A stretch of 59,913 nt of DNA, the filler included, from Sphacelaria rigidula (Eukaryota), in assembly GCA_964200075.2 (NCBI GenBank). It is 7 parts of 7 records of this genome, joined end to end, with 100 filler letters (N's around TTAATTAATTAA, not from the genome) between each part and the next. Parts side by side here need not be neighbours in the genome. Positions count along the whole stretch, not along the records: positions 42,870 to 51,341 come from CAXNAA020011027.1; 6 more parts are not named here. One strand, given 5' to 3'. The notes under the pieces were generated by a model. It saw nothing but the letters and a program-made list of their open reading frames with translations, made no database searches and was not told where the DNA came from. Each line of letters starts with the position of its first letter. Positions within the stretch are counted from its first letter, which is position 1. Shown in pieces: positions 2,451 to 53,050 of the stretch. The translations under genes were made by a program, and so were the position numbers.

Positions 2451-2466
2451 GCAAGGGCCTATCTTA

Positions 2467-17049: not shown

Positions 17050-17149
17050 NNNNNNNNNNNNNNNNNNNNNNNNNNNNNNNNNNNNNNNNNNNNTTAATTA
17101 ATTAANNNNNNNNNNNNNNNNNNNNNNNNNNNNNNNNNNNNNNNNNNNN
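17050..17149. other. Artificial contig linker
   Basis: 44 N + TTAATTAATTAA + 44 N. Confidence 0.99.
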
Positions 17150-18478
17150 TGCTTGAGATACCACATCCTCAGGAGCGAATTTCAAAGCTCGGTCACCTTC
17201 TCTCCACAACATGGTTGCAACGCCGCCCAGTTCAGCCCTGGCATCGCTTCTGATGAGCGTAGAGAAGCTGTCTAGGGGATGTGGTATCTTGAGCGACCTA
17301 CAATAGTGAGTGAGAGTGTCAGTGCCAGTGTACCGCTCGATCTTGTACACTGCGGCCATACCAAAACAGCCATATCGACAAACATATCGATATCGGCGGT
17401 TGTGGTTCGATATTCTAAGAAAATCTAATCGAACTTGATTCTCGGTCCGATATGCAACACTGGCCTATACTGTACACGAGTGACCGTGTACCGTTTCACG
17501 AATGTCAGTCATTTTTCGATCGAAAGCTTGAAAATCCATCTGGACCCAACTACATCAAAACGAGAAAATTTCGCTCAGATTGATTCCACGGCCCCATTTT
17601 TTCGATCGAAAAAAAAGTGCGCAAGACAAGCCCCAAGACACGGCCTCAGGGAGTGTCTGATCAAATTGTTCTCGTGTTGAAAACGTGCGGTCGAATCGAT
17701 TTGTTTCGTTCCTGATTCGTCCACAATTTATTTCCTCAGATGGTTGATGACATGAATGCCGTGGACGTAATAGGCACGAGCAAATTCAACTCCACCCTGC
17801 GTTTTCAAGTCGAAAACAATTTGATAAGGGACGGCCTGAGACACGCCCAGGCAGACATGCTAATCGGTCCCCAAATCGTGTCCGAGCTGTTCGACGACAC
17901 CATATTCACCATACTCGTAGACAGCTCTCATCAATTTTCCCTTTTTCGCTGGGATGCTCCACCTGAATTCACTTGATTTTTATACTCCCCCTTTTCGACG
18001 GATAACTCGTGCGTTCAGGCGACGTCTTCCCTTTCCAGACACCGCTTACACGGAGCCGACAGCATTGGCCTTTTATATCACATCAATGTGTTTGCACAGC
18101 GTACCATCAAACCTAGAAACAAAAAAAACGCTTCATTACGCCCCGGTGGCTCAGTTGGTAACCTCGAAGCCTCCTGACAGTTGGGTCGTGAGTTCAAATC
18201 TCGGAGCGATCTGGGATTTCCTTCACACCAGGCCCAACAGTGGAGAGCGACTATGTCGCGGGTACACAAAATTTTTGACTCAACGGTCGACGAGGAAAAG
18301 GGACAGCTGAACCCCCCTCTCGAAAAAAATGTATGCAAGCACCGCAGAAGGGAGGTGGAGTACTTAAAACAAACAAAAAGAAAAAAACTCCTGTAAACTC
18401 CCTCCTGTGTGACCCCGGCTGGTGCGCCCACATATACTGAAAGGTAAAAGGTAGCCCAGCGTCCAGGATGGGACGACA

Positions 18479-25623: not shown

Positions 25624-25723
25624 NNNNNNNNNNNNNNNNNNNNNNNNNNNNNNNNNNNNNNNNNNNNTTAATTAATTAANNNNNNNNNNNNNNNNNNNNN
25701 NNNNNNNNNNNNNNNNNNNNNNN
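25624..25723. other. Artificial contig linker
   Basis: 44 N + TTAATTAATTAA + 44 N. Confidence 0.99.
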
Positions 25724-26051
25724 GCTTTATTATCTGGTATCGCCACTTCCAGAGACAGCCACGGCTTATACACTGCCTCATGGGTGTCTCACCATTTAAA
25801 CACTACGTAGTATGATCATCTCCTTTGCGCGGACTCGACGTTCTCCCACCCCGCACAACATGATCTTGGTCGACCACCATCATGGCTATCGCAAAAAAAC
25901 GCAAGCGTGCAAAAAATACGGTAAACTGGTTGCCTGGCTTACGCAGTGAGTGGCGCGTTTTACAGCGTCATCGCCAACCGACGCCGACCCCATAGAGGGT
26001 CCGTCCTTACAAAGCCGGGATGGAACCCGCCAGGGTTCTCGCCGGACCCGG
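25724..26051 (-). repeat. ~560-bp C-run-associated element, copy containing the 5' end
   Basis: Reverse complement aligns with 50863-51190. Followed by a G-rich tract. Confidence 0.9.
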
Positions 26052-32888: not shown

Positions 32889-33172
32889 GTACCCACGTAT
32901 GCCGTAGCCGTAAGACCACTGACCTTGCATCCCTACAAAGCCGGGACGAAGCACGACGGAGTTTTGCCCGATCAGGCTCGCTACCAATCACCAAGCGCGA
33001 AATGCCGTGGTATGCTCGGCGAGTCGCATGAAGGGTGAACTTAATCCTGCTAAGATTTCTCGGCCGAAACCGTACTGATTATCTTGCATTTGACGGACAG
33101 CCTCCGATGAGTTGCTTTATTTTCTGGTGTCGCCACTTTAAGAGATAGTCACGGGTTACACTGCCGCACGGG
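32889..33172 (-). repeat. ~560-bp C-run-associated element, 5'-truncated copy
   Basis: Flanked on both sides by G-runs. Aligns with the other copies. Confidence 0.9.
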
Positions 33173-34196: not shown

Positions 34197-34296
34197 NNNN
34201 NNNNNNNNNNNNNNNNNNNNNNNNNNNNNNNNNNNNNNNNTTAATTAATTAANNNNNNNNNNNNNNNNNNNNNNNNNNNNNNNNNNNNNNNNNNNN
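34197..34296. other. Artificial contig linker
   Basis: 44 N + TTAATTAATTAA + 44 N. Confidence 0.99.
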
Positions 34297-35959: not shown

Positions 35960-36330
35960 GGTCGCCCCGGTGGCTCAGTTGACAACCTCGGTACCCCCTG
36001 ACGGTTGGGTCGTGGGTTTAAATCTCGGAGCGATTAGGGATTTTTCTCACACAACGCCCAATAGTGAAGAGCGACTATGTCGTGGGTACACAAAATTCGA
36101 CTCAATGGCCGACGAAGGAAAGGGACTGCTAAACCCCTCTCGCGATGAAAAAATAAAGGCAAGCACAGCAGAAGGAAGATATAAAGATGGGGAACTAAGA
36201 CAAACAAAGGAGAAAAACTCCTGTATGACCCCGGCTGGTGCGCCCACATATACCGAAAGGTGTAGACCGGCGTCCAGAATAGATGCGACGACAACACACA
36301 CATACACAACACAGCACAACACAACACACA
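35960..36330 (+). mobile_element. tRNA-derived SINE, full length
   Basis: GGTCGCCCCGGTGGCTCAGTTG head, shared body, GACGACAAC(AC)n tail. Confidence 0.9.
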
Positions 36331-37287
36331 ATACTGCTTACACGCTATCGTTCTTACTTCTGCTGCCCCCACCCCAAAAGGGTGCATATACGCGAACGCG
36401 TGCCTGATATTGCAGAGCGTGCAGCATCACGGTTGGACTCACACTTGAAAATACCAGATAGTGGACGCTTTGACTGGGTGCTCTGCGTGCGCTTGGGTTC
36501 CATGTTGGACAAGCACCTTAGGGTTAGGATTAGAAATAGCGCGCGCAAAAACAGTGCGCTCTTGCCTTCCCGAAGTCAGCAGAGCACTTTGGGCGCCATA
36601 TGTTCTGCGCGAAGTTGCGGAAACAAGCAATTGTCACCCCAATTCTCGACTCATAGCCATCGGACTTGGTTGAGTATCAAATACCAAGCTGTGTAATGCT
36701 GTGTAGCTCTTGGTGTCAGCTATTGGTCGTTCTCGGACTTATCCCGGGAGTTTTGCGAGACTGCGTACGCCGGGCCCGGCATGCCACGATCGGAACGGAA
36801 ATCAAGAGACATGCTGTATTTTGACATTGATCATGATATTTCGTTCTCATAAGGCACGCCCTGAGCACATTTGCATGCTACGAAATGCGCCTCACCGTTT
36901 CCGACCTACAGTACTGTCTCACATGAGCCGACATATCTCGACCATTTCAAATGTACATGTACACTTGGAATCTGAAATCGATAAACTGTGCCCCAAAACG
37001 TTGTGTGTGATGGGGTCGAGCCGCTTGTTCGTCCAGGGCCAGGGTCCTTCAAGCCTCAAGCAGGTGAAGCGATCAAGACGCTTGTGCATGTGCATGTATT
37101 CAGCAACCAAGTAGTGAAGTAGGTGCTGAGTGTGAGGGATGCCGACGGTATCCAATTATATATTCACCAACGCAGTAATCGCCACCCCTGCTTTAGACGC
37201 ACTTGTACAGCATTTCATCCCTTGGTGAGACAATCGGTGTGAGTAGCGGACCTATCGTGTGCTCACGATATTTTGTCTCAAGGGGCG

Positions 37288-40200
37288 ATGATTCTCCGAT
37301 GCGGTCTCCGATGCGGCGGGAAGAGAGTCGACAAGTGGGCCGCACTCGTTGCCATTTTCTTGGGCGCGAATTTGGATCCAAGCTCTGCTAGCGCTGAAGA
37401 CAGGGCGGTGCTGGGTGCCGTGACGCCGCATTCAATCGCGCTAGGCGAGGAGGTGACCGTGAGGTGGAGCTATGAAGACGGAGATGGAGGTACACAGGAT
37501 TCATGGTTTTGTTTTTTTGCGTATGAGCAGGTCCCTTGCGTCCAAAATGTCCAAATGGTGAGGTATGCTGTGCTATTCTATGCTGCGCTGTGCTGCGGTC
37601 TACGTCGTTCTTACAAGACGGACGTCTGGGGCTATTTTCAGGTCTGATCGCACGGGAGACCTGCATGGCGTCACCCGCGAAGGACGATAGGCAATCGTTA
37701 CGTCAACTCGAAAACACAGCCGCACATGACCCACGTAATGCTATTCACTATAAAATTAATAGCACACACGAACGGAAGAAGGAAGAAGAGAAGAGAAGAG
37801 GGCACAACCGTTGAGTATTTACCTGCAGGCAAGCTACACGAGGAAGCACACATGAGGACCCACGCAAAATGGCAGCATCCGATTTTGAGGAAGGCACACT
37901 ACGAAAAGTTTCAGACGTGAAGACACTCATGAGAACTTCACGTGACACTCAGGGGAGGTGGGCACAATCAGGATGCCCGTCGTCTGACGAGTGCACACTC
38001 GAACACCGACGCCGTAGGTATCCGGGGCAGAACCATGAGCCCCGTGTGGCGATGTACTACCTGAATGTGTCATGGCTGAGGCCGATGGGTCAACACGGTT
38101 GATCGAGGTATGCCGCTGATATGTGCAGCGCCAGCCTCGAATTGGGCTACGCTACGCTACCCTACCTTACCTTACCTACCCACCTCCGCTCTTGTCGCGT
38201 TGTGTTGACTGTTTTGTTATGTAGGTTCCACGGGCCGTTTCGACATCGACCTCTACATGTGCGACGACGCGTTTTGCGGACAAAGTGACTGTGGAGAATT
38301 CGTCAGCAACATTTGCGACAAGCCGGGGTGAGCTTCTATGGTGTACAAATTGTCTGGTATAGTATATCCCGTGTACTCGTAGACCTTTTACTTGTTTTTC
38401 CTTGTTCTCGTAGTGCTGACTTTACCGCACCACCTGAAGTCCGTTCGCCTTGCACTGTATTGACTGTACTCTACTCCCACCGACGGGAGTGCCCCCATTT
38501 TGTTCCCGTTTTGTGCTACTGCTACTTGAATTATTTCAGTACCTCATTCCTTGACGCCAGTTTTACGAGTCGATCGCGTGCAGTCTAGTCGAATATATAT
38601 GAGCAACCCTACTTTTTGTGCAACTTCCTCGACTTGTGCTGGCTGAACGTTCGAGCGAGCACGGCTTGAAGCAGCAAGCGCGAAATTTCATCTTGATGTT
38701 GGTGTTGGTGTTGGGGTTGGCGATAGTTATCTTTTCGGTATCTGTTGTCTCATTGTGTCTCAGTGTACACTGATTCTGTGTCTATGGTGTTGGCGTTGTC
38801 ATCGCCATCGTCGTCACCCTTGCCTCGGCTTGTTGTCATTGCCCATGAGATGAATACCCACTCATGTCGGGGTACCTCCTATGTTGTGTTTCCTGCGCAC
38901 GACCTGATCCCTTGCTTGGACGCTTGGACTGCGGGGAAACAACAAACCGGACGAACGGGAAACAGAATTGGATGCGTCGACTCTAGTGGCGACTATGCGA
39001 TGACCGTTCCCACCACCTTGACACCTGGTGACGCATACAAGATCAGGTGACATCTGCTAGATATTGTGCTGCACTGTTGTAGTATTGTAGTTACCCCTCT
39101 TCTCTATGGAGGGAAAAAAAAATAGTATTTTGCATTTTTCCTTGCCTGCGGCGGCGTACCCGCTAGGCCCCCTCATCACCGGGGGGGGGAGCGTTGGGGC
39201 TCGCGGCGAAGCCGCGAGCCGCTGATGTTTTGACCGCATCGATGTACTGGCCGCTGGCGTGGTGAGTTCAAACTCAACTGGCCAGAGTTGCCAGTCCACA
39301 GTCATAAAATTTCGGACACAAGTAAAGTGCAATGCCAGCAGAAGTAGGAAAGAGGGACTTGTGATACTGCTCACATGGTGGCTGACGCAGCGCACCATGT
39401 ATCGCTCCATGCATTTGTACGTTGCATCGCAAATTGCTTGGGTGCTGCTTTGATTCATTGGTTGGACGATTGATCGTCGTACACATGTGAAGATGAAGTG
39501 ATCCGCCACGAGTAGAGCCGTGGTACAATCACAAGCTAGGTTTATACCCGAGATGAATACTGGGCAAAAATCTTCAAAGGAAAGTCGAGATAGGGTGAGG
39601 GGAACGACGAAGAAAGAAGAAAGGATAAAGGACAAACAGTGTATGGTTCAAAAGTCAGCTTAGTGTTCACATTCCGGTCATGGCAACGTCATGGCACCGA
39701 CACACTGACGCTCTGTACTTTCGCCTCCGGTGCGCTCTTGTTCTGCGTTCAGAGTGGGATTACACGACACGGACCTCTTCGACTGCACTTCAACATTCAC
39801 CATCCTCGAGGATATTCCAGTGCCTACACTGGAGGTATGTAGAATGAATCCCCCTTGATTTACGTACACCGCCGCGTAGCGCGCCCTAGATGTGTATGAT
39901 TGCTGTCCTGTGTTGTTCTCACTCCTCACTGGCGTGGCGCATACCTCTATGGGCGAGCGCGTCTTGTCTGTGGCTCTCTATTTTACCTCTTACGTGATGC
40001 ATTTCTTTGTCTCGCCCTTAGTGCCATTTCTATATATCATTGATAGCTTGATGTTGGAAGTTGTAGACGGTAGACCGCTTTTCACTCATGAATTGCAGGA
40101 ATTGGGGTCTACACCGTTCCAAGTTTCCCATTCCACTCTTGTCGTTCATCTTCTTACTGCTTGGTTCAGGTGTATACCCCCGTCTACTCGGCAGTTTCAG

Positions 40201-41717
40201 GAAGCGATTACTCCTCTGCGGATGATGACCACAGTGCGTCCGAAGTAGTGGAAACAACGTCTTCCACAGAACAGGTTGGCCATAAGCTCCCTCGTTGCCT
40301 CCACATGGGAAGGTTAAAGAATACTCGCGCAGTGTGTCATGGTGTGTGTTTGTACCGCATGTAGGTTAGTCGGCGTAAGTGTCGCGTCGAGTTGTAGTAC
40401 GTGGTGTTCGTTCCAAGTCTCGCCTGTGCATGGTATGCATACTTTTTTCTGTCACTTGCACACTATTTTCACATGCCGATGCATTTGTCATGTGACCAGC
40501 GTTGCGTGATGCTCTCAGGCCGCTTCCTTCAGTCTGAAAACGGACTCTCTGAGAATTGCCCTTTTCGAGCCTTTCATCGCGGATTCTGACGCAACACGGG
40601 CATGGCGAATTGGGCCTCCTCGGAAAAATTGCTGTGCTTTCCAAGAGGATTCTAGCGTAGTTTCTGATTTTTCGTGCGCCCAGTTTCAGTTTTGAAGATA
40701 TTGTCAATTATTTCGGTCGCCCCAAAGATCTTCGAGTTGTCGGAAAAAACACGTATTTTTTCCAGACAACTCATGAATTTTGCGGCAACTGAAAAAATCT
40801 GCAATATGGCCAAAAGTAAAAGTGGGCGCAGGAAAAATCTGCAAACTACGCTCGAATTCTCTTGGGAAGCATAGCAAATCTTCACGAGGAGGCCCACTCC
40901 GCCAAGGTCCGTATTCCATAAAAAATCCGCGATAGAAGGCTCAAAAAGGGAAAAATCTCAGAGAGTCCGTTTTCAGCGAAGAAGCGGCAAGGAGAAAAAC
41001 GTGACAGTTTGTTGGGCGTTCATTCTCAGGCTGACCGCATGTAGTGTCATGCCACATGCCTTGTGTGCAGCAGAACTCGGCACACGACCATACACATCAT
41101 CATGGTAAAATCTGTTGTTCTGAAAGTAACATACCGTTATAATTGCACAGCGTATTTTATTCAGGACAATATGCCGCTCTTTGGTAGCAGGAGATGGCGT
41201 CTCATGACAAGACACGATGAACGGAAAAAAAAGGCACCTGGTAGGTAGAGCGCACCAGTCATCCCATCATGCGGACTCGATCTATGTTTCTGTTTACGCG
41301 TCGGTTGGCACTGTGAAAATTCGCTGTTTTCTCTTCAAGCGTTGCAGTATCGAGAGAAGGCTACAGGACATCTCTTGTGCACCTTGCTACACGTATGAAC
41401 GAAGCAACACATCTCGCCCATAGCAGATACACTACACTACAGTACCTCTATCCTCCGTAGGTCCGTCTTGTTTTTGGCATGTCATCCTGCAATCTTGCCG
41501 CGCTTTTGGCAACGTCGTGTTCCAGTCTCGTACCGTGCCCCACCTGATGGGGTATGTGCCGTGTACTGTATGTACATTGTGCACTGAGTAGTTGGATCGC
41601 ATGTTGCCTTTCCTGCCTTATATTCCAGAGGTTCCGAGCGCTGCAGTCATCGGACGCCCCCTATTTCGAGGCATCGACAGGCTACGCCATAGCAGCAAAC
41701 GACTCAATAACTGTCAG
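37288..41717 (+). CDS. Partial spliced gene: secreted/cell-surface protein with Cys-containing Ig-like (Kre9/KNH-N-like) domain(s)
   Basis: Phase-compatible exons 37288-37489, 38225-38327, 38966-39046, 39753-39834, 40170-40274, 41629-41717. Product: hydrophobic leader WAALVAIFLGA; GEEVTVRWSY..FDIDLYMC..CG..CG.FVSNICDK..GC.DS.GDY..TVP..PGDAYKIRV..DC..TFTI; Ser/Thr/acidic linker; then the start of a likely second domain (ANDSITVR). Confidence 0.8.
40518..40988. mobile_element. 471-bp fold-back MITE, intronic
   Basis: Arms GCCGCTTC..CTGAAAACGGACTCTCTGAG / CTCAGAGAGTCCGTTTTCAG..GAAGCGGC pair inward to a small loop near 40750. TSD not clear. Confidence 0.8.
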
Positions 41718-42169
41718 GTAATACACTTGCGCTGAGAGGCACCACTACTAGTGGGGAAGTCGCCAAGGCTGAGGTGACAGCAACACCTACAGCCCGCGAG
41801 GAATTCAAAAGTAAATGGTCGAGACGGTGACCCGCTTGGCTCGTGACTAGGGATGACCGGGGCAGGCGGGGCCATCGTAAAAACTGATGTAGCCTTGTGT
41901 TGTCCTAGTGTGGTCGTTTGCTCCTTTCCCCGGTGTACAGTTTTAGTCATGCCCTTCACCTGCATTCCTGCACATGCTTAGCTCTGTCCTTAGCTCTGAG
42001 TTTTTTTTCTTATTCCTCCTCCTTCTCGTCCTCTTGTTCCGTTCTGTCCTGCTCTGTCCTGCTCTGCTTTTTTCTCCTAACGCGGTACAAGTAATACCAT
42101 TAGTAATGGTAACAGTGTCAGTATTGGTATTACTATTAGTCTTAGTGTTCGTTTGTGTCTCGCTGCTGC

Positions 42170-42665
42170 AGACTTACCAGCGGAGGTGACTTCTGATATC
42201 GTACCCAAATAGTCTTGTCCCCAGACAGCTCACATGTAATGGTCGAAACGGGTTCCACGACCCTGCCCGTCATGTTTTGTTTTGTACAGCCTCCTTACTG
42301 GAAGCCATGCGGCAGGGACCTGGCGGGTTTTGTTTCTTGTCTTGTTTTATTTCGGTACCGATGCCGAATTACGCCATATTATACGGTATCATACCTCACC
42401 CTACCATACCATACCATGTCATACCGTACCGTACTATACTGTACTAGATATAGATCTCAACCCGTCGGTTTTAGCTTGGCTTTCCTCTCTGTTTTTTCTC
42501 CCATTGTCAGTTAAGGTTACCGGGTTCTCTCCATCCTTTTCAATCTTTCTGGTTCATCGAGATAATTTCCTTCAGCTCGTATCTACTTTTATTTGCTTCG
42601 GGTATATCTTGGGGTATGTCTTGGGGGTTTGTGTGTTTACGTCTATCTTGTGACCACGGCTGTGT

Positions 42666-42718
<53 letters not shown>

Positions 42719-42760
42719 ATCTCACATTAGCTGATTGCAACAATCCAGCCCGTGGTCAGG
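42170..42760. mobile_element. LINE-type 3' region abutting an oppositely oriented (AATC)n tail
   Basis: TGACCACGGCTG (42651) faces CAGCCCGTGGTCA (~42746) across (GATT)n at 42666-42718. Left boundary uncertain. Confidence 0.5.
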
Positions 42761-42769
42761 AGCAGCAAA

Positions 42770-42869
42770 NNNNNNNNNNNNNNNNNNNNNNNNNNNNNNN
42801 NNNNNNNNNNNNNTTAATTAATTAANNNNNNNNNNNNNNNNNNNNNNNNNNNNNNNNNNNNNNNNNNNN
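42770..42869. other. Artificial contig linker
   Basis: 44 N + TTAATTAATTAA + 44 N. Confidence 0.99.
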
Positions 42870-43801
42870 ACCAGGCCGAAGAAATCGTGGATTTGGTGAT
42901 TCGTAGTCGTGATGATTCGTCCTAACCGTGAAAGCTTCGTATTAAGAAGTAAGCTCCCTGCGACGAATGGTCTCTGCAAAAACAAAAATCGCGTTGGGGC
43001 GCGCGATACTACGTCGGCTGTAAGCTGTCACGAACCGCGCGGAGTGCTCCCGTACCAGCTCTCGTGCCCCCTCTCCCTCGCACATGAACCCGTATCCCCC
43101 ATGCATGGGGCGGTGTTGTATATTACCTCCTACTGAGCGCAACAGTATTATTTCGGCGAAAGTGACGAAAGTCCAAAGTCCACCTACCATTTTATGTAGC
43201 ACGCACAGTGCGCTTCCAAAGTGTTTGACGACCCGAGATCCTGTTTGCGACCACAAGGTAAATAGATGCGTCGATATCTTCCGCGGTCATGCAGTATAAC
43301 GATGTTTTGACAGCAAATTCGGTTAGCACATACTAGCTGAACTCCAAGGGCACCTGTTTGGGCATATCTGTAGTTTCGTCTGATGGCAGGCGAGGTTTTA
43401 CATCGTCTCGTTGACAGTTTTTTTTTTATCCGATTTCGAATCAGGCTTGTCCGTAGGAAAATCAAGACACGAAAATTTCGCTCCCACCGGACTTTGGTTC
43501 GGTATGGTAGCGCTTGGTCCGATCGCTTCAATCTTCCGTAGTCATTGTCCATCTCCAGTCATTGTTCATCTCAACGAGAGCCTGGCTCCCAAACCCGCGC
43601 CCAAAGAGCCTTCCTTCGAAGAGCCCCTTGGCTCATGGCCACACCGTTTACACCTTTCCATTATCCAAATTGCCACAACGGGCACCATGTTGTTCAACAT
43701 CGCGTTTTCACGAGCAATTTTGGCGAACCTGATTTGATTTTGCTCTCGGATCAATGCGTACGCAAGCCGCAGCTGATTACTATGAGACGTCGTGGTACGC
43801 C

Positions 43802-44099
43802 TCGATGTCTCTATCCCAGCTCTGATGTCCGTTGGCATTTTTGCATTTGAACACTGTCAGGGGCACCCGAGGTGTACGAACGACATGAGCTTCATAGGGA
43901 GGCGATCCCGTAGCGATATTGACCCAGCTGTTGTAGTTCATTTGGACAAAGGGCAAACATGAATACATTGAAGCTGGGTCAATATCGCTACGGGATCGCC
44001 TCCCTATGAAGCTCATGTCGTTCGTACACCTCGGGTACCCCTGACATTGTTCGAACGCAAAAATACCAACAGATATCAGAGTTTGGATGGAGATATTGA
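43802..44099. repeat. ~300-nt inverted duplication (hairpin) of integrase sequence with 65-bp perfect stem
   Basis: 43865-43929 is the exact reverse complement of 43972-44036. Imperfect pairing continues outward about 60 bp and inward to a ~9-nt loop. Confidence 0.95.
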
Positions 44100-44601
44100 A
44101 GAGTACCACCAAGTTCGTCGCAGCTGCAAGCGAACGTGCCTTCATATGGTTCTCACCACTTCAGCCCCACTGTTTTCCGTCAGACGATGGGAACTATTGA
44201 AAATGCGATGAGCACCCCTGAATACAGAGAGATATGCACCGTTGTCGGATATAAAATCTCAGGGGCACACCTCATGTTGTTCACTAGGACGTCGGCGGCA
44301 CCTTTGGCTCTAAAGTCAGATTCAGACGCAGCGTGCATAACCGCGTGTCGACATAATCGATCTGTGAACCACAAAATATACTCATTACCAATTCTATCGG
44401 TGAGGAGCAATGGACCGAAGTAATTTCACGAGAAGACTTCGCCGGGCCTATCAGGAGGTAGCGTGGAAATCACGGGAAGTGGCATGGAAATCACAGGACA
44501 CCCAACAGTCTCGCATGAAGTTTTGTGCCCTTGGCACAACAGACAAGTTCGCTCCCGCCAACGGACCCGCTAATAATATAAATCCACAGATCAAAACGTT
44601 C

Positions 44602-44854
44602 GAGGATCGGACGAATCATCGCTGGTTCGGGTAACCATATCTATGATTTCCGAGGGCTGATGGCACGAAAATGAGAAGAAAGTTGACCGCGGGTTTGAGA
44701 AAGTGTCTCGTGCAAAGTTTGCGCTATTTGACGTGCCTCGGATGCGCGCACCTGAGGGTGCGACGATGACAACAGAACTCAAGGATTGACTCGTACGGGA
44801 CAAATCACTCACAGTAAAAGCAACTAAATTTCCAGTCGATTCGTCCGACCGTTC
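44602..44854 (-). mobile_element. CA(C/A)GG-TIR family MITE inserted in the Gypsy element
   Basis: Termini TCGGACGAATC ... GATTCGTCCGA. Internal match to 1108-1315. Confidence 0.7.
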
Positions 44855-47696
44855 ATGAGGTTTAAGCATTTGTGGCAGTACTGACGTCTACAAGGCGCGT
44901 GGATGCCTGCGTCTGGCACTCGTGTTGCACCCAAGTCGTGGAAAACATCGGGACATGGATTCTCGACAATGTATTACATGCAAGCAAAGTGCATTTGCCT
45001 TCAGATTCTGCATTCGAGGCGCCGTTGTGGACCGAACGAACCGGAAGGACGAAGCCATTGATCGCCCGTATGTCGCATGCCTTTTCGGGCGAGGGGCGAG
45101 TCCAGTAACGTCATCCCCTCTGGGGGCTCTGTGAATCCCCAAAGGTGAGAAAAAAATCGGTTTCTGATCAGGGGAAAGGGCATCCGTGGACAAGTCATGG
45201 ATTGGCGCCCGGCAAGCAGGTTCTGCTGGCCGCTCTCCGGATTCTATATTGTGTGTGATGTACGCTTTTTGACGATGTAGTCTTTGGTCCAGGGTGTGAT
45301 TTACACTACGAGAATCCTTTCAGGCGGTTATGGCTGCGGTCGGGGATACCATGGGTTGGCCGATCGCTCGACAGTGGTCCGTGTTTGTGGGCAGCTCCAC
45401 TCAAGACTGAGCGCAGCGATTGAGGTTATGTCAACTGCCTCATGTTGATGCATTGGCGGAGGGTGTCAGCCTACGCATGCGGTGAGCCCGCGTGTCGACA
45501 GGTGAAAGTGATGTCGGGAGGCCGTGGGGACCTTCTCCGCTCATGAAGTAAACAATATTGCTCGCAATATCTTCTTTGAAGTCCATGATGCGTCCCATGG
45601 CTCGTGATGGGTACTGCCGGTTCGGACAGTGGAGACAAGAGGAGGGCGTTTGCGTTTTGCGGTCCTATTTTTTATTTTAGCTTGGACGTCTAAGACGACA
45701 GTGTTTCGAATCAGCACTGTACCGGTGCCTTTTGTGTTCCGCCGCTTGAGCGAGAGGTTCCAGAGATTCATCTTTCTTGAGGTCGCAGAACAGATATCCG
45801 GGAATGTTGACGGAAGCGTCTCATGACCGCAAGCTACAGGGCCGGCCTATTTTGCCGCAGTCGTGCAGTTTTGTTCGTGTGGAGAGGTGGTCCGACTTAG
45901 GCATAGAATGGTATGGATAATGACATGGTCTTTCTAGTATTCTCAAGTGCAGCCAAATCCGATTTTGGATTCATCCGTGTGCAGTCGGAAGGGATGGACG
46001 GAAACATTCCCGCCGCTTTCTCGCCGTGGAAGACCAGGGCCGGTTGTCGTGATTGGGTGTCCAGCAGGCTACGTATGGTTTGTTCCGTTTACGCTGCGAA
46101 CACGAATGTCACCATTTGTTGCAGAGGGTAGTGATGGGCTCCAACGTTTGGGCTAGGTTTGGTAAATGCTGACGGTAGTAGATAGCTCAATCCTTCCACC
46201 GAGGAGCGCAGTTGGGGAACATCCTCAGGCATGGGCACATCGGCAGGCGCGGGAACTTCGTCAAGATTGAGACTGCCGACCTTCAGCTGTGATGGGATGG
46301 CCTAGAAACTCTATCGTAGTCGCACAGTGCGAGATTTGGATGGAAGGCGAGTTTCGAAATCGTCTTGTTCAAATAGTCTCGGAAAAGGATGCGATGCGTT
46401 CCACGTGTTCGGCCGGTGTGCTTTCATGACACATATCATACGATATTTTGACAGTCCGTTGAATACACGAAAAAGTACACTTCGAACAGCTCCGGGAGCG
46501 TTGGCCGCAGCTGTTGTTGTAACCCGCCATTAATACAGCCCTGACAGCATGCGAAATGCCGTCAGTTCAATCGACCTCGGATCCGTCACCACGTGATGGT
46601 AGCCAGGTTGAGCATCGAAAGTCGAAAATCGTGGACCGTTGCTGAAGACGTCGATAATTGAATCTATCCCCGGAAGAGGCAGGCCAGCGGCAGGCTTTAC
46701 AGCATTCAATCGCTGATAGCCTACCGTGAGTCTGATCTCGCCGTTTTGACATCTACAACGAATAAAGCCGAGACCCACGACAATGTGGAGTGCCGGATTA
46801 GGCCGGTGGCTAGGTGACCATCGAGGATGACTTTGATTTGCCAGCCAACAACGGTCATGTACGGGAAGCATGCGTGGCGATAGGTGGTATTCCGTCCGGT
46901 ACGTTTTTTTCGACAAAGTCGTTGTACGTCGACCCAAACCCAAGGGCGATATCGAAAATCATTCAGAATAGAGTATCAAAGTAGCTGCAATGCCTGTCGA
47001 TAAGACTCACCTCCAACCGCCGCCGACTAGATAAAAAAGACGTGTGGTGTATTTGCGGGAATGTCAAGCGCTTGACCGCTTGAAGCTGACATGTAGTACA
47101 TACAGAGGCCAACCTGTCCAGGAAAGTCGTTGGTGGGGTGGGTTCCACCACCACCACTGCTGCTGGTTTTGCGCGCCAAAATATGCGATGTACTCGGATC
47201 TGAAAACGGACACAGCCTGCAATTTCACATCTACGGTAGGATGCTTCTTCCCTTATGATGCAGCAAGGCTTCATCGTTTTCTTGAGTGATTTTCTCCAGG
47301 ATTCAGTTTGAATTTGATTGCTGCTTGCATCTCTCTGTTACTTCTTGGTGTGGAGCACGGCTTTGTCGTGTCGGAGAAATTTCCCAGGCCCTCGGTATGA
47401 ATAATCTCTCGAGGGTCGTGCCCCCGTTGTCTAACGTCACAGCTGACTCCACTAGGCCGGAGAGAATGCGATGCTGACTCCCGTCCGATGCGACTATTAT
47501 AGTGTGGCCCTTCTCTCAGAAGTGTCTGATTTTTGTCGTTCGAAACGTGAGCGCTTGAGTAGAAAAGCTGCGTTTGAGTTTGTTATGCTAGACCACGGTC
47601 GATGCGGTCCGGGGTTGCTGTTGGTGGCTGAACGGGACGAAATTTGAAATTTTTTCGTGGTCAATGATTTTTCAAGGTTTGATCCCAAAGTGTGGT

Positions 47697-47735
47697 GTAC
47701 TCATGATCGTGCATGCCATAGTCATAAGACCATTG
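47697..47735 (-). repeat. Short 3'-end fragment of the C-run-associated element
   Basis: GTACTCATGATCGTGCATGCCATAGTCATAAGACCATTG. Confidence 0.8.
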
Positions 47736-48490
47736 CTTGTGTGGGGATCGGGAGATACCAGCATCCGTCCCACCTTCCGGGGAAAACCCCCCCCGGTTTC
47801 TGCACGCATTATTTTGAACGGCGTATGGGCTGATCAGTTTTCGGGAGTCCTGCGACTACACAGCCCTAATTTCTGATCCTTCTGTAATTTTGCTCAAGTG
47901 AGCCAATCTCGATCGTTCTCGTGAATGTACGTGAACAAACTTGTTTTTTGAATTTCTACCGTATCATTGCGGTATAACCAAAAAACTGTGTTTTTTGGGC
48001 CAGTGGCGTTCAATAACACCCCCTGATAAACGAGGTCTTTACTGCGTATCAACACGAAAACACCAACACGACTTGCTTCTTTTCCCAATATCTACCGACT
48101 CTAGCACTTTCGAGTACTCATCACAAATGGAGCGAGAAGAATACAAGAAAGTACCCAACTACGTAACAATTGCTCACCTGGGTTGTGAAAAGTACAAAGG
48201 GGTAAACAATCCCATTCGTTTTCGTAAATAATTCGACAAACCGTATTTTTTTTCAACTTCCACTTATTTGGCGCGCTAGAGCCGAAAAACAAAATATTTG
48301 GACTCAAAACGGTCAATAACACCCCCTGTAGAATTTCATAATGGAGTACATACTGAATTTTCACCGCGTGGCGCCTAAAAAGGTTACCATAATATGACAA
48401 TCAAATGTATTTTGCGCTACATTGAGTAGACGAATGCGCGGTATCTGGCGACACATGGCAAAGCTCACCCCTTCGTATTTGGAGGAGGTT

Positions 48491-48788
48491 GTGCTCATGA
48501 TCTCGCATGCCATAGTCATGAGACCGTTGACCAACCATTCCTGCGAAGCTGGGACGGAACACGCCGAGTTCTCGCAGGACCAGGCTCGCAATCAATCGCC
48601 AAGCGCGACGCGCCGTGATGTGTTCGGCGAATCGCGTGAAGAGTAAGCTGCATCCTGCTAAGATGTTTGGCCCGAAGCCTACTGATAATCTTGCATACGG
48701 ATGCCAACCTCCAACGAGTTGCTTCATTGTCTGGTAGCGCCACTTCCAGAGACGGCCACGGCTTACACACTGCCTCACGGGTGTCTCA
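48491..48788 (-). repeat. ~560-bp C-run-associated element, 5'-truncated copy
   Basis: GTGCTCATGATC... to ...CACTGCCTCACGGGTGTCTC. Aligns with 30857-31153. Confidence 0.9.
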
Positions 48789-48817
48789 GTACTTGGAGGG
48801 AGAGAAAATTCAATTAA

Positions 48818-48858
<41 letters not shown>

Positions 48859-49385
48859 CCACCCAACCCACACGCGCCCCGCAAAAACACCGCCACCGCG
48901 CCGAGCAAAAAAGACACATTCAGTGCCCCCNNNNNNNNNNCCAAGGACGGCCCCGGCTTAACCCCCCCCCCCCGGGTGGCCCCGACCTTGGAGGGAGAAA
49001 AAATTCAATTAATCCCCCCCCCCCCCCCCGCGCCAACACGTATACGAAGTGCGGACCAACTGGAGCCTGAAAACAGACAGCTCGGGATGTCAACAGAATT
49101 TTCATGTAGGTTCGCACCATTAAATCCATCGTCAAGGCATACTTGGCATAATAGTGCGAACACAAACGTCCAAACAGTTCATCAACATGCGAAGATTTTT
49201 TTTGTTCAAATAACGGTTGACTTGAGCTCTGCCAACCCGCGCTTGGCCTCGGACACTTCCTAGACCTGTCGTTGCCCGAGGGTTCGCGGTCTGCCTCAGG
49301 TTGGGGTTGAGGTCAAGATTCGGATTTCAGCGCAAGCAAGTATATGCCAACCGTGGAACCTCGGGGTCGAAATGGGGAGCTCACG

Positions 49386-49732
49386 CGTGTGTGTGTTGTA
49401 ATGTCGTCCAATCCATTCTGGACGCCGGTCTACATCTTTCGGTATATGTGGGCGCACCAGCCGGTGTCATACAGGAGGAAGGTCAACACAGGAGTTTTTT
49501 TTTTTAGTACCCCACCTTCCTTCTGCGGTGCTTTTCTATATATTTTTTTATGGTGAGAGGGGTTCACCGGTCCCTTTCCCTCGTCGGCCGTTGAGTCAAA
49601 TTTCGTGTACCCACGACATAGTCGCTCTCCACTGTTGAGAACGGTGTGAGAAAAAATCCCAGATCGCTCCGAGAGTTGAACCCACAACCCAACACAACCG
49701 TCACAAGGTTTCGAGGTTACCATCTGAGCCAC
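49386..49732 (-). mobile_element. tRNA-derived SINE
   Basis: Reverse complement has a GTGGCTCAGATGG A box, a GGTTCAACTC B box, the shared body and an (AC)n tail. Confidence 0.9.
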
Positions 49733-50862
49733 TATCACTGAGTCATCGGGGAGACCGGCGTGCAGGACGTAAATGCATGTTGTTCTCAAGGGGCGCGCTC
49801 GACATTGCGTGCTGTACCCAACGCCACCCGGGATTCGCGTCCCAACTTGGAGAGATAGATACTTGAACCTCCATCTGCTGCGCTTTTTTATGTGAAAATG
49901 CGTGAACATGCTCTCCAGGTTAGAGAGGTAGCCGCAGCTTTCACCGTCGGAGATATGGAAGCCGTGGGCAGGCTCATGTTGCATAGCCGAAGGTACGTGT
50001 TGTTGCGGCCGTTGATCAGAGAATGCTTCGTGCAAGTGTGGTCCTATAATTTCGCGGCTTACTAATGTTATATTTTATATGTTTGCCCCCCCCCCCCTCC
50101 AGCTTAACTACTCGAAATAGGTGCTCGTTTCTGAACTTTTCTGAGCATTTTTTTGCAATCAAGCGGAATACCTTGCCTCGGAACGAGTTGGCTGCGCCGT
50201 CCGCCAGTTGCACGTTGCACGTTTCCCGTTGTCGAGACGTACGTACCGCCCACTTCGCACCCCCCTTGTTCGAGCAGATTTTTTCCCTGTCCGTCCATCT
50301 AGGGTTGGAATTCGGTGGGTGTTCCTTCTGTGTATCGCAATCGTCACGTATAAACTGGTTCAGAATTTCAGCTTCGGGGTTCCTGTAAATCAGCTGAAGA
50401 TATGCACTGTACCAAGCATGTCCAAAGGACGCCATTTTTGTCTCAGCCAGGAGAGGTCCTTGGTCCATGGAGCAACGTTTGTCTGTTCTTTGCAAGTTTG
50501 TGCGGGTTTGTTGGTCGCGATTCGGTTGGTGAAAAATGATCAGGGGTTCGTTCCCCACTCTATTCAGTATGGAATTCTCATTGGTCACCCAGAGGTCTGA
50601 GATTGTTCCGACACCTGAGCATGCCGCAATGACAACTCGGAAAATACTGTATTGATGGCTGCTTATATGCGGCGACGTATGTAATGTTGTTGACTAATCA
50701 AGGTCCTTGATGTCTGGACTACGCAATGTCTGTGGTGTGTAGATGGGTACGGGCGATGTCTTTGCTCTCGATTGATATATTGAGTTGTGGTACTGGCTAT
50801 CACACTTGAACAGTACGCATGTGCAAAAAAGTAGTTGAACGCAATGATTACCCTCCCCCCCC

Positions 50863-51341
50863 CCTGGCCCGGCGAGAACCCGGCGTGCTCCGTCTCGGCT
50901 TGGTAGGGGCGGATCCCCGATGGGGTTCGCGATGGTTGGCGATGGCGCTATAAAACACGCCACTCACTGCATAAGCTAGGAAACGAGGTTACCGATTTTT
51001 TTGCGCTCTTGCGTTTTTTTGCGGTAACCATGATGGTAGTCGAGGTAGATTATGTTGTGCGGCGTGGGAGAACCTCAACTCGGCACAACGAGAATGATCG
51101 TACTACGTGGTGTTTGAGTGGTGAGACATCGATGAGGCAGTATTTGAGCCGTGGCCGTCTTTGCAAGTGGCGATACCAAAAAATAAAGCAACTCATTTGA
51201 GACTGTCATGCAAATGCAAGATAATCAGTAGGCCTCGGGCCGAGCAACCTTCGCAACATGCAGCTTACCCTTCATGCGACTCGCCGAACACACCACGGCG
51301 CTTCGCGCTCGGTGATTGAGTGCAAGCCTAGTCCGGCGAAA
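50863..51341 (+). repeat. ~560-bp C-run-associated element, near-full-length copy (3' cut by contig end)
   Basis: Begins after a C-run with CCTGGCCCGGCGAGAACCCGGCGTGCTCCGT. The same motif recurs at 51327. Confidence 0.9.
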
Positions 51342-51441
51342 NNNNNNNNNNNNNNNNNNNNNNNNNNNNNNNNNNNNNNNNNNNNTTAATTAATTAANNN
51401 NNNNNNNNNNNNNNNNNNNNNNNNNNNNNNNNNNNNNNNNN
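51342..51441. other. Artificial contig linker
   Basis: 44 N + TTAATTAATTAA + 44 N. Confidence 0.99.
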
Positions 51442-52271
51442 AGTGGGACAATCATCACAACTGTCATGCTCATCATAATGTCCCCCCCCCCCTCAAAAAC
51501 TCTTATTTTTTTCAATCTTGGGGCCTGTGTGCCCAGATTTTGTTCTTCGCTGCCCACTGTGAAAGCCGTTGTGCCTTCGCAGTTGATAGCGGAACGAAGG
51601 AGAACGCCCACTTTCACCACCATGATCACAGCCAGTTTGAAATCAATATAGCCTAACAAGCAAAGTGGGACCTCCATCACAACTGTCATTCTTATCATAA
51701 TGAACAGCTCGCGAAGTAGAAGCGCTTTGCATCGCAATCAGAAGAGATACCTGACGCTACCACGGTATCAGCATTCGCTTCGTTGCGCTGAGTGAAAATT
51801 CGAGTGCTCGGCGGGTACACGCCGTTGCCTTGGTGGCAGTTCCGGTAGACTAGTCCACCTCTAGTACACGTCCAGGTGGATGCGGCTGCAGGGTGATGCA
51901 TGGGGGTTTGGAGTATGACTATGACTGCTTGACAGTATATTATGTGTCTAAGGAGGTTCAGGGTTACTTCCGATAACGAAGACTGTGTTTTGTTGACAGC
52001 ATCTGTCTTGGAGTCTCCAAGCCCTAGTGAGGGAGGAAGCCCTTGGAGCAGTCTTGTAACCTTGCTCTGAGTCCAGGAGGGGTCTTTTTTCAGGAAACCC
52101 GCTGGTTTCTGGCAAAGTCTTTTTTCAGCTGCGGGCAGTCCCTGCAAAAATATTTTTGTATCGTGGTATACAGACAAGGTGTGCAGTCTTGAACGCGAGG
52201 CAGCTCGTTACAGCTCGTTGAACAGAGCGACGGCCACGTTGACTGGAAGCATTGCGTGCAGCTAAGGAAGA

Positions 52272-53050
52272 ATGACAGCGCGCAGGACAGGTGGTAGGGG
52301 CGATGCAGGCGATGAGGTGACGTTTAAGTTTACTGAGCTCATGCCAGGTGGATCGCTAATAGCACCGGAGTACGGACGGTATTTCAGTGAAGATGCCTCC
52401 AGACGTTTTTTTCAAAAGTGTAGGGATTACGAAGAGAGCGTACAACTAAGCAATACGGGGCGCACAGTACAGCCGCTTTATTGACCCCAACAAAACTCGC
52501 GCCTAAGCACATTCGCGCGTGTTTGTCACGTACAATATTTGACGGATCGGTACTCGATGATGAACATCTGAAGGAGACACGAGGCCGACATGCAAAATGT
52601 TGGATTGGTACAGATATCGATCCTTCAATTGCTGCTGCGGGTGTACGGAAGGCGTTGGCCACTCGCAACGAGTCGACTGCCATGGGTAGAATCGAGGGAC
52701 AGTGGGGTGCCCTCGAGGAGGTTGTTGCCGAAAATGCGAGCATCGAGCGTGCGTTCCGCGAGAACGAGACGTTCGAAGCAGGATCCACTCAAACGATTAC
52801 GCGGGAATTGTTCGCCGGCATGTCCCCCCCTGAGTACAAGATGAAAGTGCTCAACATGCTTCACATGAAGGGGGGGTGGAAAGAGGACCCTGGGCTCGTG
52901 TATGGTACGGCTCAGGAAGTAGCATAGGCATGGAAGACGGTAGAAGCGGCTGATAAACAGCGCCGTCATCAGCCGCACCTGAAACAAGAGGGCAGCAGCG
53001 GGGCCTCCGGGTCCAAGCCCGAACCGAATGGAGAAAAAACGGCAACCACT
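52272..53050 (+). pseudogene. Frameshifted intronless ORF, probably decayed retrotransposon gag
   Basis: Overlapping ORFs 52272-52484 and 52481-52927 read as one protein-like sequence with a frameshift and a stop. Retroelement-rich context; no diagnostic motif. Confidence 0.4.

What the first reader, a model, noticed from the sequence alone, without database searches (positions are those of the whole stretch)
43802..44099. Retrotransposon integrase folded back on itself: ~300-nt hairpin with a perfect 65-bp stem (candidate miRNA/siRNA 'killer' locus)
Seen: inside a Gypsy pol full of stops, a segment encoding ...NSWVNIATGSPPYEAHVVRTPRVPLTVF is duplicated in inverted orientation. The central 65 bp (43865-43929 vs 43972-44036) pair with no mismatch, while the outer ~60 bp carry about a dozen differences (about half G:U-compatible on the + strand). 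The loop is ~9 nt. Known: inverted duplications of TE sequence can silence a whole family in trans (maize Mu killer), and brown algal miRNAs come from long plant-like foldbacks. Inference: the uneven conservation suggests selection on, or gene conversion within, a small-RNA-producing stem.
Basis: partly seen in the sequence, partly recalled or inferred. Interest (0 to 1): 0.72.

Follow-up and report, generated by a model that had tools for sequence, protein, structure and literature searches.

The report
Inverted duplication inside a dead retrotransposon
A real 328-base hairpin-forming inverted repeat sits inside a decayed Ty3/Gypsy integrase gene and looks like a repair or replication scar that was later partly evened out, with no evidence so far that it makes small RNAs.

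Summary
Arms 43787-43929 and 43972-44114 (143 nt, 127/143 matching, no indels) flank a 42-nt spacer. The inner 65 bp are perfect. The repeat is not an assembly artefact. Short-read contigs from three runs of two studies break exactly 30 nt (k-1) inside the perfect stem. In two of those runs a 102-nt contig reads stem-spacer-stem.

The host is a decayed Ty3/Gypsy pol on the minus strand. The left arm and spacer are the native integrase just after the catalytic core. The right arm is an inverted copy that adds about 103 nt net, so about 40 native nt were lost.

The 16 outer mismatches look neutral: no third-codon-position excess, and G:U-compatible changes split 6 on plus versus 5 on minus. The perfect block is statistically real (p=5.6e-5). 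A second foldback in the window has no such block.

Best reading: an old snap-back or template-switch duplication, later homogenised next to the spacer by arm-to-arm template switching or gene conversion.

The "killer" or miRNA reading has no support. No other family copy at 80% identity or more was seen across the flanking integrase, and the Rfam miRNA hit is sub-threshold on both strands. Small-RNA data could not be examined. Interest is low.

The parts
43787..43929 (-). Left arm. This is the native integrase segment, read on the minus strand (SWVNIATGSPPYEAHVVRTPRVPLTVFKCKNANGHQSWDRDIEAYHD).
   Evidence: IR arm. It is in frame with the spacer and aligns to integrase residues just after the rve core of P0103, P0130, P0141 and P0007.
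43930..43971 (-). Spacer of 42 nt. This is native integrase sequence (SMYSCLPFVQMNYN) lying upstream of the left arm on the minus strand. It forms a small inner stem with a 9-nt terminal loop.
   Evidence: Translation. The LPF..YN motif aligns to homologues. Fold. A 102-nt read-derived contig spans 43900-44001 in X1 and X3.
43972..44114 (+). Right arm. This is the inverted copy of the left-arm segment, inserted into the integrase gene. It reads as integrase only on the plus strand, opposite to the element.
   Evidence: Relative to intact homologues, the window has 91-115 extra nt in 20 of 22 anchor pairs (median 103).
43865..43929 (.). Perfect 65-bp stem, left half. It pairs with 43972-44036.
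   Evidence: The flank contig ends at 43894, which is 30 nt into this block, in X1, X3 and X4.
43972..44036 (.). Perfect 65-bp stem, right half.
   Evidence: The flank contig starts at 44007 in X1, X3 and X4.
44115..44551 (-). Integrase upstream part: the end of the zinc finger (C..C), the first catalytic-D region (GNEYILWFTD) and the SDNG region. It is decayed, with stops and frame changes.
   Evidence: tblastn hits on 44551->44234 from many polyproteins; the best is P0130, E = 4e-6. Three-frame reading.
43600..43786 (-). Integrase C-terminal continuation downstream of the left arm. The similarity is weak.
   Evidence: Weak tblastn extensions only (P0137 43820->43743; P0130 frame -3 piece), plus my reading. 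This part is inferred.
45600..46958 (-). Reverse transcriptase-RNase H remnant of the same element, in one frame with 10 stop codons.
   Evidence: The phmmer search found 5573 proteins at E<=1e-3, 85 at E<=1e-10. tblastn cluster at 46014-46979, minus strand, n=113 HSPs.

Best explanation
The locus is a mutational scar in a long-dead, solitary Ty3/Gypsy copy. It is not a selected small-RNA gene.

Step 1 (inferred). A break or stalled fork inside the integrase gene was repaired by fold-back (snap-back) or template-switch synthesis. The 3' end copied 143 nt of the sequence lying 42 nt away on its own strand. The product was then joined back with loss of about 40 native nt. On the minus strand this gives integrase | inverted copy | 42-nt native spacer | native segment | rest of integrase.

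Step 2 (shown). Both arms then drifted neutrally to about 20% difference in the outer 78 nt.

Step 3 (inferred). More recently, the 65 bp next to the spacer were re-copied from one arm to the other. The route was intramolecular template switching, as in quasipalindrome correction, or short-tract gene conversion. This erased all differences there.

If the region is transcribed on either strand, it would fold into a long hairpin that Dicer could cut. No near-identical family copy is visible for such RNAs to act on.
For: Real structure. The arms and perfect block are in the sequence. Read-derived contigs from X1 and X3 (study P1) and X4 (study P2, which carries 3 SNPs against the window and so is a different strain) stop at 43894 and restart at 44007. 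That is exactly k-1 = 30 nt inside the perfect stem. In X1 and X3 a 102-nt contig reads stem-spacer-stem with 0 differences.

Host element. The RT-RNaseH read-through finds 5573 proteins. All 5 long hits that were checked are RT-RNaseH-H2C2-rve integrase polyproteins; an aspartyl protease domain was also found in 4 of them (not P0007).

Polarity. The spacer plus left arm, read on the minus strand, align to integrase just after rve. The integrase core lies upstream on the same strand at 44551->44234.

Insertion. 20 of 22 anchor pairs from 19 homologues give a surplus of 91-115 nt (median 103), against an arm of 143 nt.

Neutral drift. The 16 mismatches fall 8/2/6 over codon positions 1/2/3. There are 11 transitions and 5 transversions. 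Wobble-compatible changes are 6 on + and 5 on -.

Heterogeneity. Fisher p = 5.6e-5 and run test 4.9e-4. A control foldback in the same window (2513-2665 / 2741-2893, 132/153 matching) has a longest perfect run of 15.

Mechanism in print. [quoted passage not shown] Quasipalindrome mutations arise by template switching (abstract of PMC7202029). Snap-back synthesis at breaks appears in the search listing and abstracts of PMC5728401 and PMC9303309.

No targets. At 80% likeness, bins 43535-43860 and 44100-44570 stay at the depth of the single main contig in X1, X3 and X4. No other copy was found in the window.
Against: The order and mechanism of the events are inferred, because no outgroup or ancestral copy was available.

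A perfect 65-bp block is also what selection for a dsRNA stem could leave, and expression was not testable.

Bins 44005-44098 (outer right arm) carry extra contig depth: X1 305/353 against 60, X3 79/52 against 11, X4 148/245 against 31. The left arm does not show this. The contigs were not listed. If they are other family copies resembling the right arm, the right arm may not derive from the adjacent left arm.

Both X4 SNPs that fall in the arms (43819, 44065) lie at mismatch sites and make the arms match in X4. SNP density is 2/156 in the outer arms against 1/1073 elsewhere (Fisher p = 0.044). This fits ongoing decay or ongoing conversion and does not separate them.

Snap-back inserts described at repair junctions are usually much shorter than 143 nt (recalled, not checked).
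Confidence: 0.65

Rival explanations
1. One complex event with several template switches. The nascent strand first copied 65 nt of the adjacent arm in inverted orientation. It then jumped by homology to another, diverged family copy for the outer 78 nt, and finally rejoined. The inner/outer contrast would then date from birth, with no later homogenisation.
For: It explains the sharp boundary at 43864/44037 in one step. Extra contig depth over roughly 44026-44101 (my arithmetic on the bins), with no counterpart on the left arm, could be other genomic copies that resemble the outer right arm.
Against: No such copy was recovered. The protein search with the right-arm ORF found no candidate. There is no copy in the window, and the metagenome scan with the stem gave 0 hits. 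No 'other letters' rows are listed for X1 or X3 in 44026-44101. Contigs 80-95% alike would be expected to produce such rows, so the extra depth may be short chance matches of repeat contigs. The arms align without any indel over 143 nt.
Confidence: 0.15
2. A functional hairpin small-RNA locus (hp-siRNA, proto-miRNA or Mu killer-like). Read-through transcription makes a long hairpin, Dicer cuts the perfect 65-bp stem into 21-nt RNAs, and selection keeps that stem perfect.
For: The hairpin is very stable on both strands. The perfect block is statistically real. In Ectocarpus, 21-nt small RNAs are densest on transposable elements (passages of PMC4513859 and PMC12477816). Brown-algal miRNA foldbacks are long, with means of 170 and 183 nt (passages of PMC4513859 and PMC5381526). 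Mu killer is a partial inverted duplication of a transposase gene read out as hairpin RNA (abstract of PMC3440606).
Against: The outer arms show no strand-specific wobble bias, 6 against 5. No near-identical family copy is visible as a target, and the host element is a decayed single copy. The published brown-algal analyses state that miRNA loci arise mainly from genomic hairpins rather than from transposons (passages of PMC5381526). In Ectocarpus, small RNAs are enriched on intact TEs, not decayed ones (passage of PMC12477816). The foldback is 328 nt, about twice the published means. The Rfam MIR171_2 hit is below the curated cutoff and equal on both strands. No recognisable gene lies in 42870-51341 to drive read-through: 26 ORFs scanned gave 0 hits above cutoff. 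The organism itself was not established here as a brown alga.
Confidence: 0.08
3. An assembly or polishing artefact: a fold-back chimeric read, or false homogenisation of the two arms during polishing.
For: Fold-back chimeras are a known long-read artefact (recalled). The loop contig has lower depth than the flanks in X1, 17.5 against about 61.
Against: De Bruijn contigs built from raw reads reproduce the flanks, the k-1 breakpoints and, in X1 and X3, the stem-spacer-stem contig with 0 differences. X4, from another study and carrying 3 SNPs, has the same breakpoints. The arms differ by 16 substitutions and no indels, which is unlike read error. No alternative joint between the flanks was reported (table 5).
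Confidence: 0.03

Closest known systems
Quasipalindrome / inverted-repeat arm homogenisation by polymerase template switching (abstracts of PMC8604942, PMC13100816, PMC7202029)
   Same: It is an imperfect inverted repeat in which one tract has become perfectly complementary, and that tract abuts the spacer. The process needs no selection.
   Different: The described cases are mostly short IRs of tens of bases. Here the converted tract is 65 bp within 143-nt arms and a 42-nt spacer. The ancestral state is not known, so the conversion is inferred and not observed.
Snap-back / synthesis-dependent microhomology-mediated end joining and fold-back template-switch duplications (PMC5728401, PMC9303309, PMC2943611: search listing and abstracts only)
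   Same: An inverted copy of nearby sequence is inserted at a site where some native bases were lost. Here that is about 143 nt gained and about 40 nt lost.
   Different: The insert is long compared with typical repair-junction inserts (recalled). No clear junction microhomology could be defined, because the arm ends have diverged.
Maize Mu killer (abstract of PMC3440606)
   Same: It is a partial inverted duplication of a transposon coding sequence that could give a hairpin RNA.
   Different: Mu killer is about a 4-kb hairpin, read out from a flanking gene, and acts on an active, near-identical MuDR. Here the stem is 143 bp, no flanking gene was found, the element is decayed, and no near-identical copy is visible. 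Transcription and siRNAs are untested.
Brown-algal miRNA loci (PMC4513859, PMC5381526: passages read)
   Same: It is a long, stable foldback.
   Different: The published loci have mean foldbacks of 170-183 nt and lie mostly inside genes. The authors found no transposon similarity. Membership needs miRNA/miRNA* reads, which were not available. This foldback is 328 nt and TE-derived, with a 65-bp mismatch-free stem that suggests siRNA-type rather than miRNA-type processing.
Young plant MIRNA genes from inverted duplication of target genes (Allen et al. 2004, seen only as a reference in PMC4513859 and PMC5381526)
   Same: It is an inverted duplication of a coding segment, with uneven arm conservation.
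   Different: No target gene or family with matching sequence was found, and there is no evidence of processing.

Membership tests
Ty3/Gypsy LTR retrotransposon (decayed copy) | Reverse transcriptase / RNase H homology | tested here: met
   P0001 (45600-46958, minus strand, stops read as X) hits 5573 proteins at E<=1e-3 and 85 at E<=1e-10. All 5 checked hits carry RVT_1 and RT_RNaseH domains. Direct Pfam on P0001 gives only RVT_1 at E = 0.14, below the cutoff.
Ty3/Gypsy LTR retrotransposon (decayed copy) | Integrase downstream of RT on the same strand (Gypsy gene order) | tested here: met
   The RT lies at 46979-46014. The integrase zinc-finger end and core lie at 44551->44234, and the post-core segment at 44001->43789. 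All are on the minus strand.
Ty3/Gypsy LTR retrotransposon (decayed copy) | Flanking long terminal repeats | tested here: inconclusive
   No LTR-like direct repeat pair was found in 36000-53000. The contiguous piece ends at 42870, about 700 nt past the integrase, so a 3' LTR may lie outside it.
Ty3/Gypsy LTR retrotransposon (decayed copy) | Intact pol reading frame | tested here: not met
   There are 10 stops in 453 RT-RNaseH codons, and 7 stops in one frame over 220 integrase-region codons, plus frame changes. The copy is dead.
Mu killer-type trans-silencing locus | Inverted duplication of part of a transposon gene | tested here: met
Mu killer-type trans-silencing locus | Near-identical active family members to silence | tested here: not met
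   Depth is single-copy over 43535-43860 and 44100-44570 at 80% likeness in X1, X3 and X4. There are no copies in the window. Caveats: the data are contigs, not reads, and the extra depth over 44005-44098 is unresolved.
Mu killer-type trans-silencing locus | Transcription into hairpin RNA and siRNA production | not testable with these tools
   No listed run is on record as RNA.
miRNA gene | Membership of a curated miRNA family | tested here: not met
   MIR171_2 scores 45.8 and 44.5 bits on the + and - strands against a gathering score of 65. mir-454 scores 27.3 against 60.
miRNA gene | Precise miRNA/miRNA* duplex in small-RNA reads | not testable with these tools
   No small-RNA data were reachable.
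miRNA gene | Foldback of typical size and imperfect stem | tested here: inconclusive
   The foldback is 328 nt with a 65-bp perfect stem. Published means are 170 and 183 nt in two brown algae (PMC4513859, PMC5381526).
IR arm homogenisation by template switching / gene conversion | A tract of perfect identity inside otherwise diverged arms, next to the spacer | tested here: met
   0/65 against 16/78 mismatches, p = 5.6e-5. The control foldback has a longest perfect run of 15.
IR arm homogenisation by template switching / gene conversion | An outgroup showing that one arm changed at several sites at once towards the other | not testable with these tools
   No orthologous or ancestral copy was found. 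X4 differs at only 3 sites.

The most novel reading that the evidence does not exclude
The hairpin is a TE-derived small-RNA source in an alga: an hp-siRNA or proto-miRNA locus born from an inverted integrase duplication, with its 65-bp stem kept perfect because it is used. That would be a counter-example to the published view that brown-algal miRNA loci do not come from transposons. It would also be a candidate trigger for the unexplained 21-nt TE-directed small RNAs.
Probability: 0.07. Interest if true: 0.6.

Novelty: new member of a known kind. Interest (0 to 1): 0.2.

Why it matters
As it stands, the locus matters little. It is a clean, read-supported example of an inverted duplication inside a dead retrotransposon, with a loop-proximal tract that was homogenised. 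That makes it useful as an illustration of template-switch mutagenesis and as raw material of the kind from which hairpin RNA genes can arise.

It would matter more if small-RNA data showed processing. How TE-directed 21-nt RNAs are triggered in brown algae is described as unknown in PMC12477816 (passages read; the word 'hairpin' does not occur in its main text).

Tried and rejected
Whole genome. None is held for this window, so family copies could not be surveyed directly.

Pfam.
- 8 single ORFs gave nothing relevant, only a spurious Diphthamide_syn at E = 0.047.
- The integrase read-through P0002 gave 0 families.
- 26 further ORFs of 42870-51341 gave nothing above cutoff; the one weak hit was DddA-like at E = 0.0048, 17.2 bits against a cutoff of 25.

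Word-indexed protein searches.
- The 126-aa hairpin ORF searched against longer proteins gave none.
- The right-arm ORF searched at near lengths gave no candidate.
- Both are weak negatives.

Other copies.
- Self-BLAST, tblastx against the other pieces of the window and relaxed blastn of each arm and the spacer found none.
- An exact 43-nt stem pattern in metagenome contigs gave 0 hits.
- Earlier findings of the scan gave nothing by place or by sequence.

Rfam. MIR171_2 and mir-454 are sub-threshold, and MIR171_2 scores symmetrically on both strands (mir-454 was reported on the + strand only). They were rejected as hairpin-shape matches.

Expression. No RNA holder is listed. X5 is labelled 'RNA?' only as a guess. 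It covers 43456-43770 and 44068-44262 at depth 3-4 and not the hairpin. Nothing was concluded from this.

Depth spikes. The spikes at 43441-43534, 43911-43957 and 44569-44700 were treated as other repeats or short partial matches, not as copies of the element.

Organism. I did not try to establish it. The only label seen is 'algae metagenome' on X4.

Full report
**1. The observation**

The repeat finder reports one inverted pair in 43000-45000. Its arms are 43787-43929 and 43972-44114: 143 nt, 89% complementary, 42 nt apart.

A base-by-base comparison gives 127/143 matches with no indels. The match is perfect over 43865-43929 against 43972-44036 (65 bp), and there are 16 mismatches in the outer 78 nt: 11 transitions and 5 transversions.

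Folded as RNA, 43760-44140 gives -267 kcal/mol on the plus strand. The 100 shuffles average -110.9 with sd 5.2, so z = -30.0 and 0 of 100 fold as well. The minus strand gives -265.5 kcal/mol, z = -28.2.

The spacer between the homologous arms is 42 nt and forms a small stem of its own.

The description is therefore accurate apart from the arm ends, which are 15 nt further out on each side.

**2. The structure is real**

No whole genome is held. I therefore used public runs.

Nine of 11 listed runs hold part of 43500-44400. X1-X3 (study P1) hold 0.98-0.99 of the sampled words, and X4 (study P2, labelled algae metagenome) holds 0.81.

I laid 43300-44700 at 80% likeness. All four runs are Logan contigs.

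- In X1, an 863-nt contig covers 43300-43894, a 102-nt contig covers 43900-44001, and a 3717-nt contig covers 44007-44700. All have 0 differences.
- X3 shows the same breakpoints and the same 102-nt contig.
- X4 has the 863-nt contig (1 difference) and a 3716-nt contig (2 differences) with the same ends.
- In X4 a contig over the spacer is implied only by a bin depth of 6.9. It is not among the listed records.

The breaks fall exactly 30 nt (k-1) inside the perfect 65-bp block. The 102-nt contig is 30 nt of stem, 42 nt of spacer and 30 nt of stem. This is the topology a true perfect inverted repeat gives in a k=31 graph (my inference from how such graphs work).

X4 differs from the window at 43819, 44065 and 44224. 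It is therefore not the same data set. No alternative joint between the flanks was reported.

The loop contig is shallower than the flanks in X1 (17.5 against about 61) but not in X3 (16 against 11-14). I attribute this to poor recovery of hairpins in short-read libraries (recalled, not tested).

**3. The host element**

A three-frame reading of the minus strand shows a decayed pol.

The stretch 45600-46958, read in one frame with its 10 stops as X, matches 5573 proteins at E<=1e-3 in the 1.84-billion-protein library, and 85 at E<=1e-10. Five long hits were scanned. All carry RVT_1, RNase H, Integrase_H2C2 and rve, in that order (in P0004, a multi-copy fusion, RVT_1's best stretch lies after rve). 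An aspartyl protease domain was found in four of the five (not P0007). P0130 also carries a chromodomain.

Direct Pfam scans of the window's own ORFs are nearly blank; the best is RVT_1 at E = 0.14. This shows how far the copy has decayed.

I ran tblastn with the 900+ aa hits against 43400-45700.

- The zinc-finger end and first catalytic region fall at 44551->44234 on the minus strand. The best hit is P0130, E = 4e-6.
- A second block falls at 44001->43789.
- In that block, "CLPFVQMNYNSWVNIATGSPPYEAHVVRTPRVPL" aligns to the "LP...AYN....TG.SP" stretch that follows the rve domain by a few to about 30 residues in P0103, P0130, P0141 and P0007.

The spacer and the left arm are thus native integrase, read on the minus strand. 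The right arm reads as integrase only on the opposite strand, and native integrase flanks it on both sides.

**4. Insertion size**

For each homologue with both anchors, I compared the residue distance with the nucleotide distance in the window. This gave 22 anchor pairs from 19 proteins.

Twenty of the 22 pairs give a surplus of 91-115 nt (median 103). The two outliers give 175 and 229. With a 143-nt arm, about 40 nt of native sequence were lost where the inverted copy went in.

**5. The nature of the differences**

- The 16 mismatches fall 8/2/6 on codon positions 1/2/3 of the integrase frame. Neither arm was under coding constraint after the duplication.
- Wobble-compatible mismatches number 6 on the plus strand and 5 on the minus strand. 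This is the even split expected of random transitions. It gives no sign that pairing of one particular transcript was preserved.
- Several differences lie at CpG sites in one arm or the other (contexts printed). I draw nothing from that.

**6. The perfect block**

The contrast of 0/65 against 16/78 mismatches gives Fisher p = 5.6e-5. With 16 mismatches placed at random, a perfect run of 65 or more arises in 0.049% of 200,000 trials.

The window holds another long foldback, at 2513-2665 / 2741-2893. It matches at 132/153, its mismatches are evenly spread, and its longest perfect run is 15. A third foldback, at 17645-17724 / 17761-17840, matches at 58/80 with a longest run of 11.

The block is therefore special to this locus. 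Long foldbacks as such are common here.

**7. Mechanism**

The arrangement on the minus strand is: integrase | inverted X | 42-nt native spacer | X | integrase, with a small deletion at the insertion point.

This is what fold-back (snap-back) priming of a 3' end on its own strand, or a replication template switch, would produce. The point is inferred. The concept appears in PMC5728401, PMC9303309 and PMC2943611, which I saw only as search listing and abstracts.

The outer 20% divergence shows that the duplication is old.

The perfect block next to the spacer is best explained by a later intramolecular copying of one arm from the other. [quoted passage not shown] Quasipalindrome mutations arise in the same way (abstract of PMC7202029).

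**8. An alternative origin**

In a single multi-switch event, the outer right arm could have been copied from another family member.

- What speaks for it is an unexplained excess of contig depth over 44005-44098: X1 305/353, X3 79/52, X4 148/245, against 60, 11 and 31 for the main contig. The left arm shows no such excess.
- What speaks against it is that no differing letters are listed there for X1 or X3, and that no other copy could be found by any search.

**9. The X4 polymorphisms**

Two of the three SNPs lie in the outer arms. Both are at mismatch sites, and both make the arms match in X4: 43819 G>A against its partner 44082, and 44065 A>G against its partner 43836.

SNP density is 2/156 in the outer arms against 1/1073 elsewhere (Fisher p = 0.044).

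This is expected either if the window's lineage acquired two new mismatches, or if X4's lineage underwent two very short conversions. It does not discriminate between them, and the numbers are small.

**10. The small-RNA reading**

The hairpin would be a Dicer substrate if transcribed, and in Ectocarpus small RNAs are densest on transposable elements (passages of PMC4513859 and PMC12477816). Several points weigh against a function.

- The element is a decayed single copy.
- At 80% likeness, the integrase on both sides of the hairpin shows only the depth of the one main contig in three runs. No near-identical target family is visible.
- Small RNAs in Ectocarpus are enriched on intact TEs (passage of PMC12477816).
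- The two brown-algal miRNA studies report mean foldbacks of 170 and 183 nt, and loci mostly inside genes. The Saccharina study (PMC5381526) reports no similarity of its pre-miRNA sequences to transposons, and it concludes for both species that miRNA loci derive mainly from genomic hairpins rather than transposons (passages of PMC4513859 and PMC5381526).
- No recognisable gene lies in the contiguous piece 42870-51341.
- The Rfam MIR171_2 match (45.8 and 44.5 bits on the two strands, cutoff 65) shares only a short UAUUG/CAAUA core with the model and is symmetric. It is a hairpin-shape match.
- I did not establish that the organism is a brown alga.
- Transcription and small RNAs could not be examined. 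No listed run is on record as RNA.

**11. Verdict**

The best-supported explanation is a neutral rearrangement scar with later arm homogenisation.

The functional reading stays open only because the decisive data, small-RNA reads and an outgroup locus, were out of reach.

Noticed in passing
window 8476-8575, 17050-17149, 25624-25723, 34197-34296, 42770-42869, 51342-51441: There are six identical 100-nt blocks (44 N, TTAATTAATTAA, 44 N) about 8574 nt apart. The window looks like seven equal pieces joined by, or masked with, a stop-in-all-frames linker. Only 42870-51341 is safely contiguous with the finding.
   Followed up: partly
window 2463-2942: There is a second long foldback. Its inner arms are 2513-2665 / 2741-2893 (153 nt, 132/153 matching, mismatches evenly spread, longest perfect run 15). 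It also has outer arms at 2463-2517 / 2888-2942. It may be a foldback or MITE-like element. I used it here only as a control.
   Followed up: partly
window 17645-17840 and 40534-40976: There are further inverted repeats: 80-nt arms at 73% with a 36-nt spacer, and a nested set of 30-41-nt arms around 40534-40976.
   Followed up: no
window 48491-48788; copies at 30857-31153, 27526-27816, 51122-51339, 16866-17049, 32896-33172, 25724-25791: A dispersed repeat of about 300 bp, 76-91% alike, is present in several pieces of the window in both orientations.
   Followed up: no
window 36004-36298 vs 49397-49693: There are inverted copies (85-91%) of a repeat of about 290 nt, lying in two different pieces of the window.
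   Followed up: no
window 58104-58613 (minus strand): A second retroelement fragment matches residues 847-1016 of polyprotein P0095 (3 HSPs, best 47.8 bits). tblastx shows no similarity to the integrase at the finding.
   Followed up: partly
window 43441-43534 and 44569-44700: Two short segments beside the hairpin are high-copy in the read sets. Dozens of contigs map there, with summed depth up to about 16,600 in X1 against about 61 for single copy, and with many variant letters at 44638-44665. They are probably small dispersed repeats inserted in or near the dead element.
   Followed up: no
window 44005-44098: There is extra contig depth over the outer right arm only: X1 305/353, X3 79/52, X4 148/245, against 60/11/31. 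No differing letters are listed for X1 or X3 there, and in X4 only the main contig's own 44065 A>G. This is unexplained: it could be other family copies or short chance matches.
   Followed up: partly
window 48746-49034: Two 94-nt direct repeats (80% alike) end in long C runs. They flank a 10-N gap at 48931-48940.
   Followed up: no
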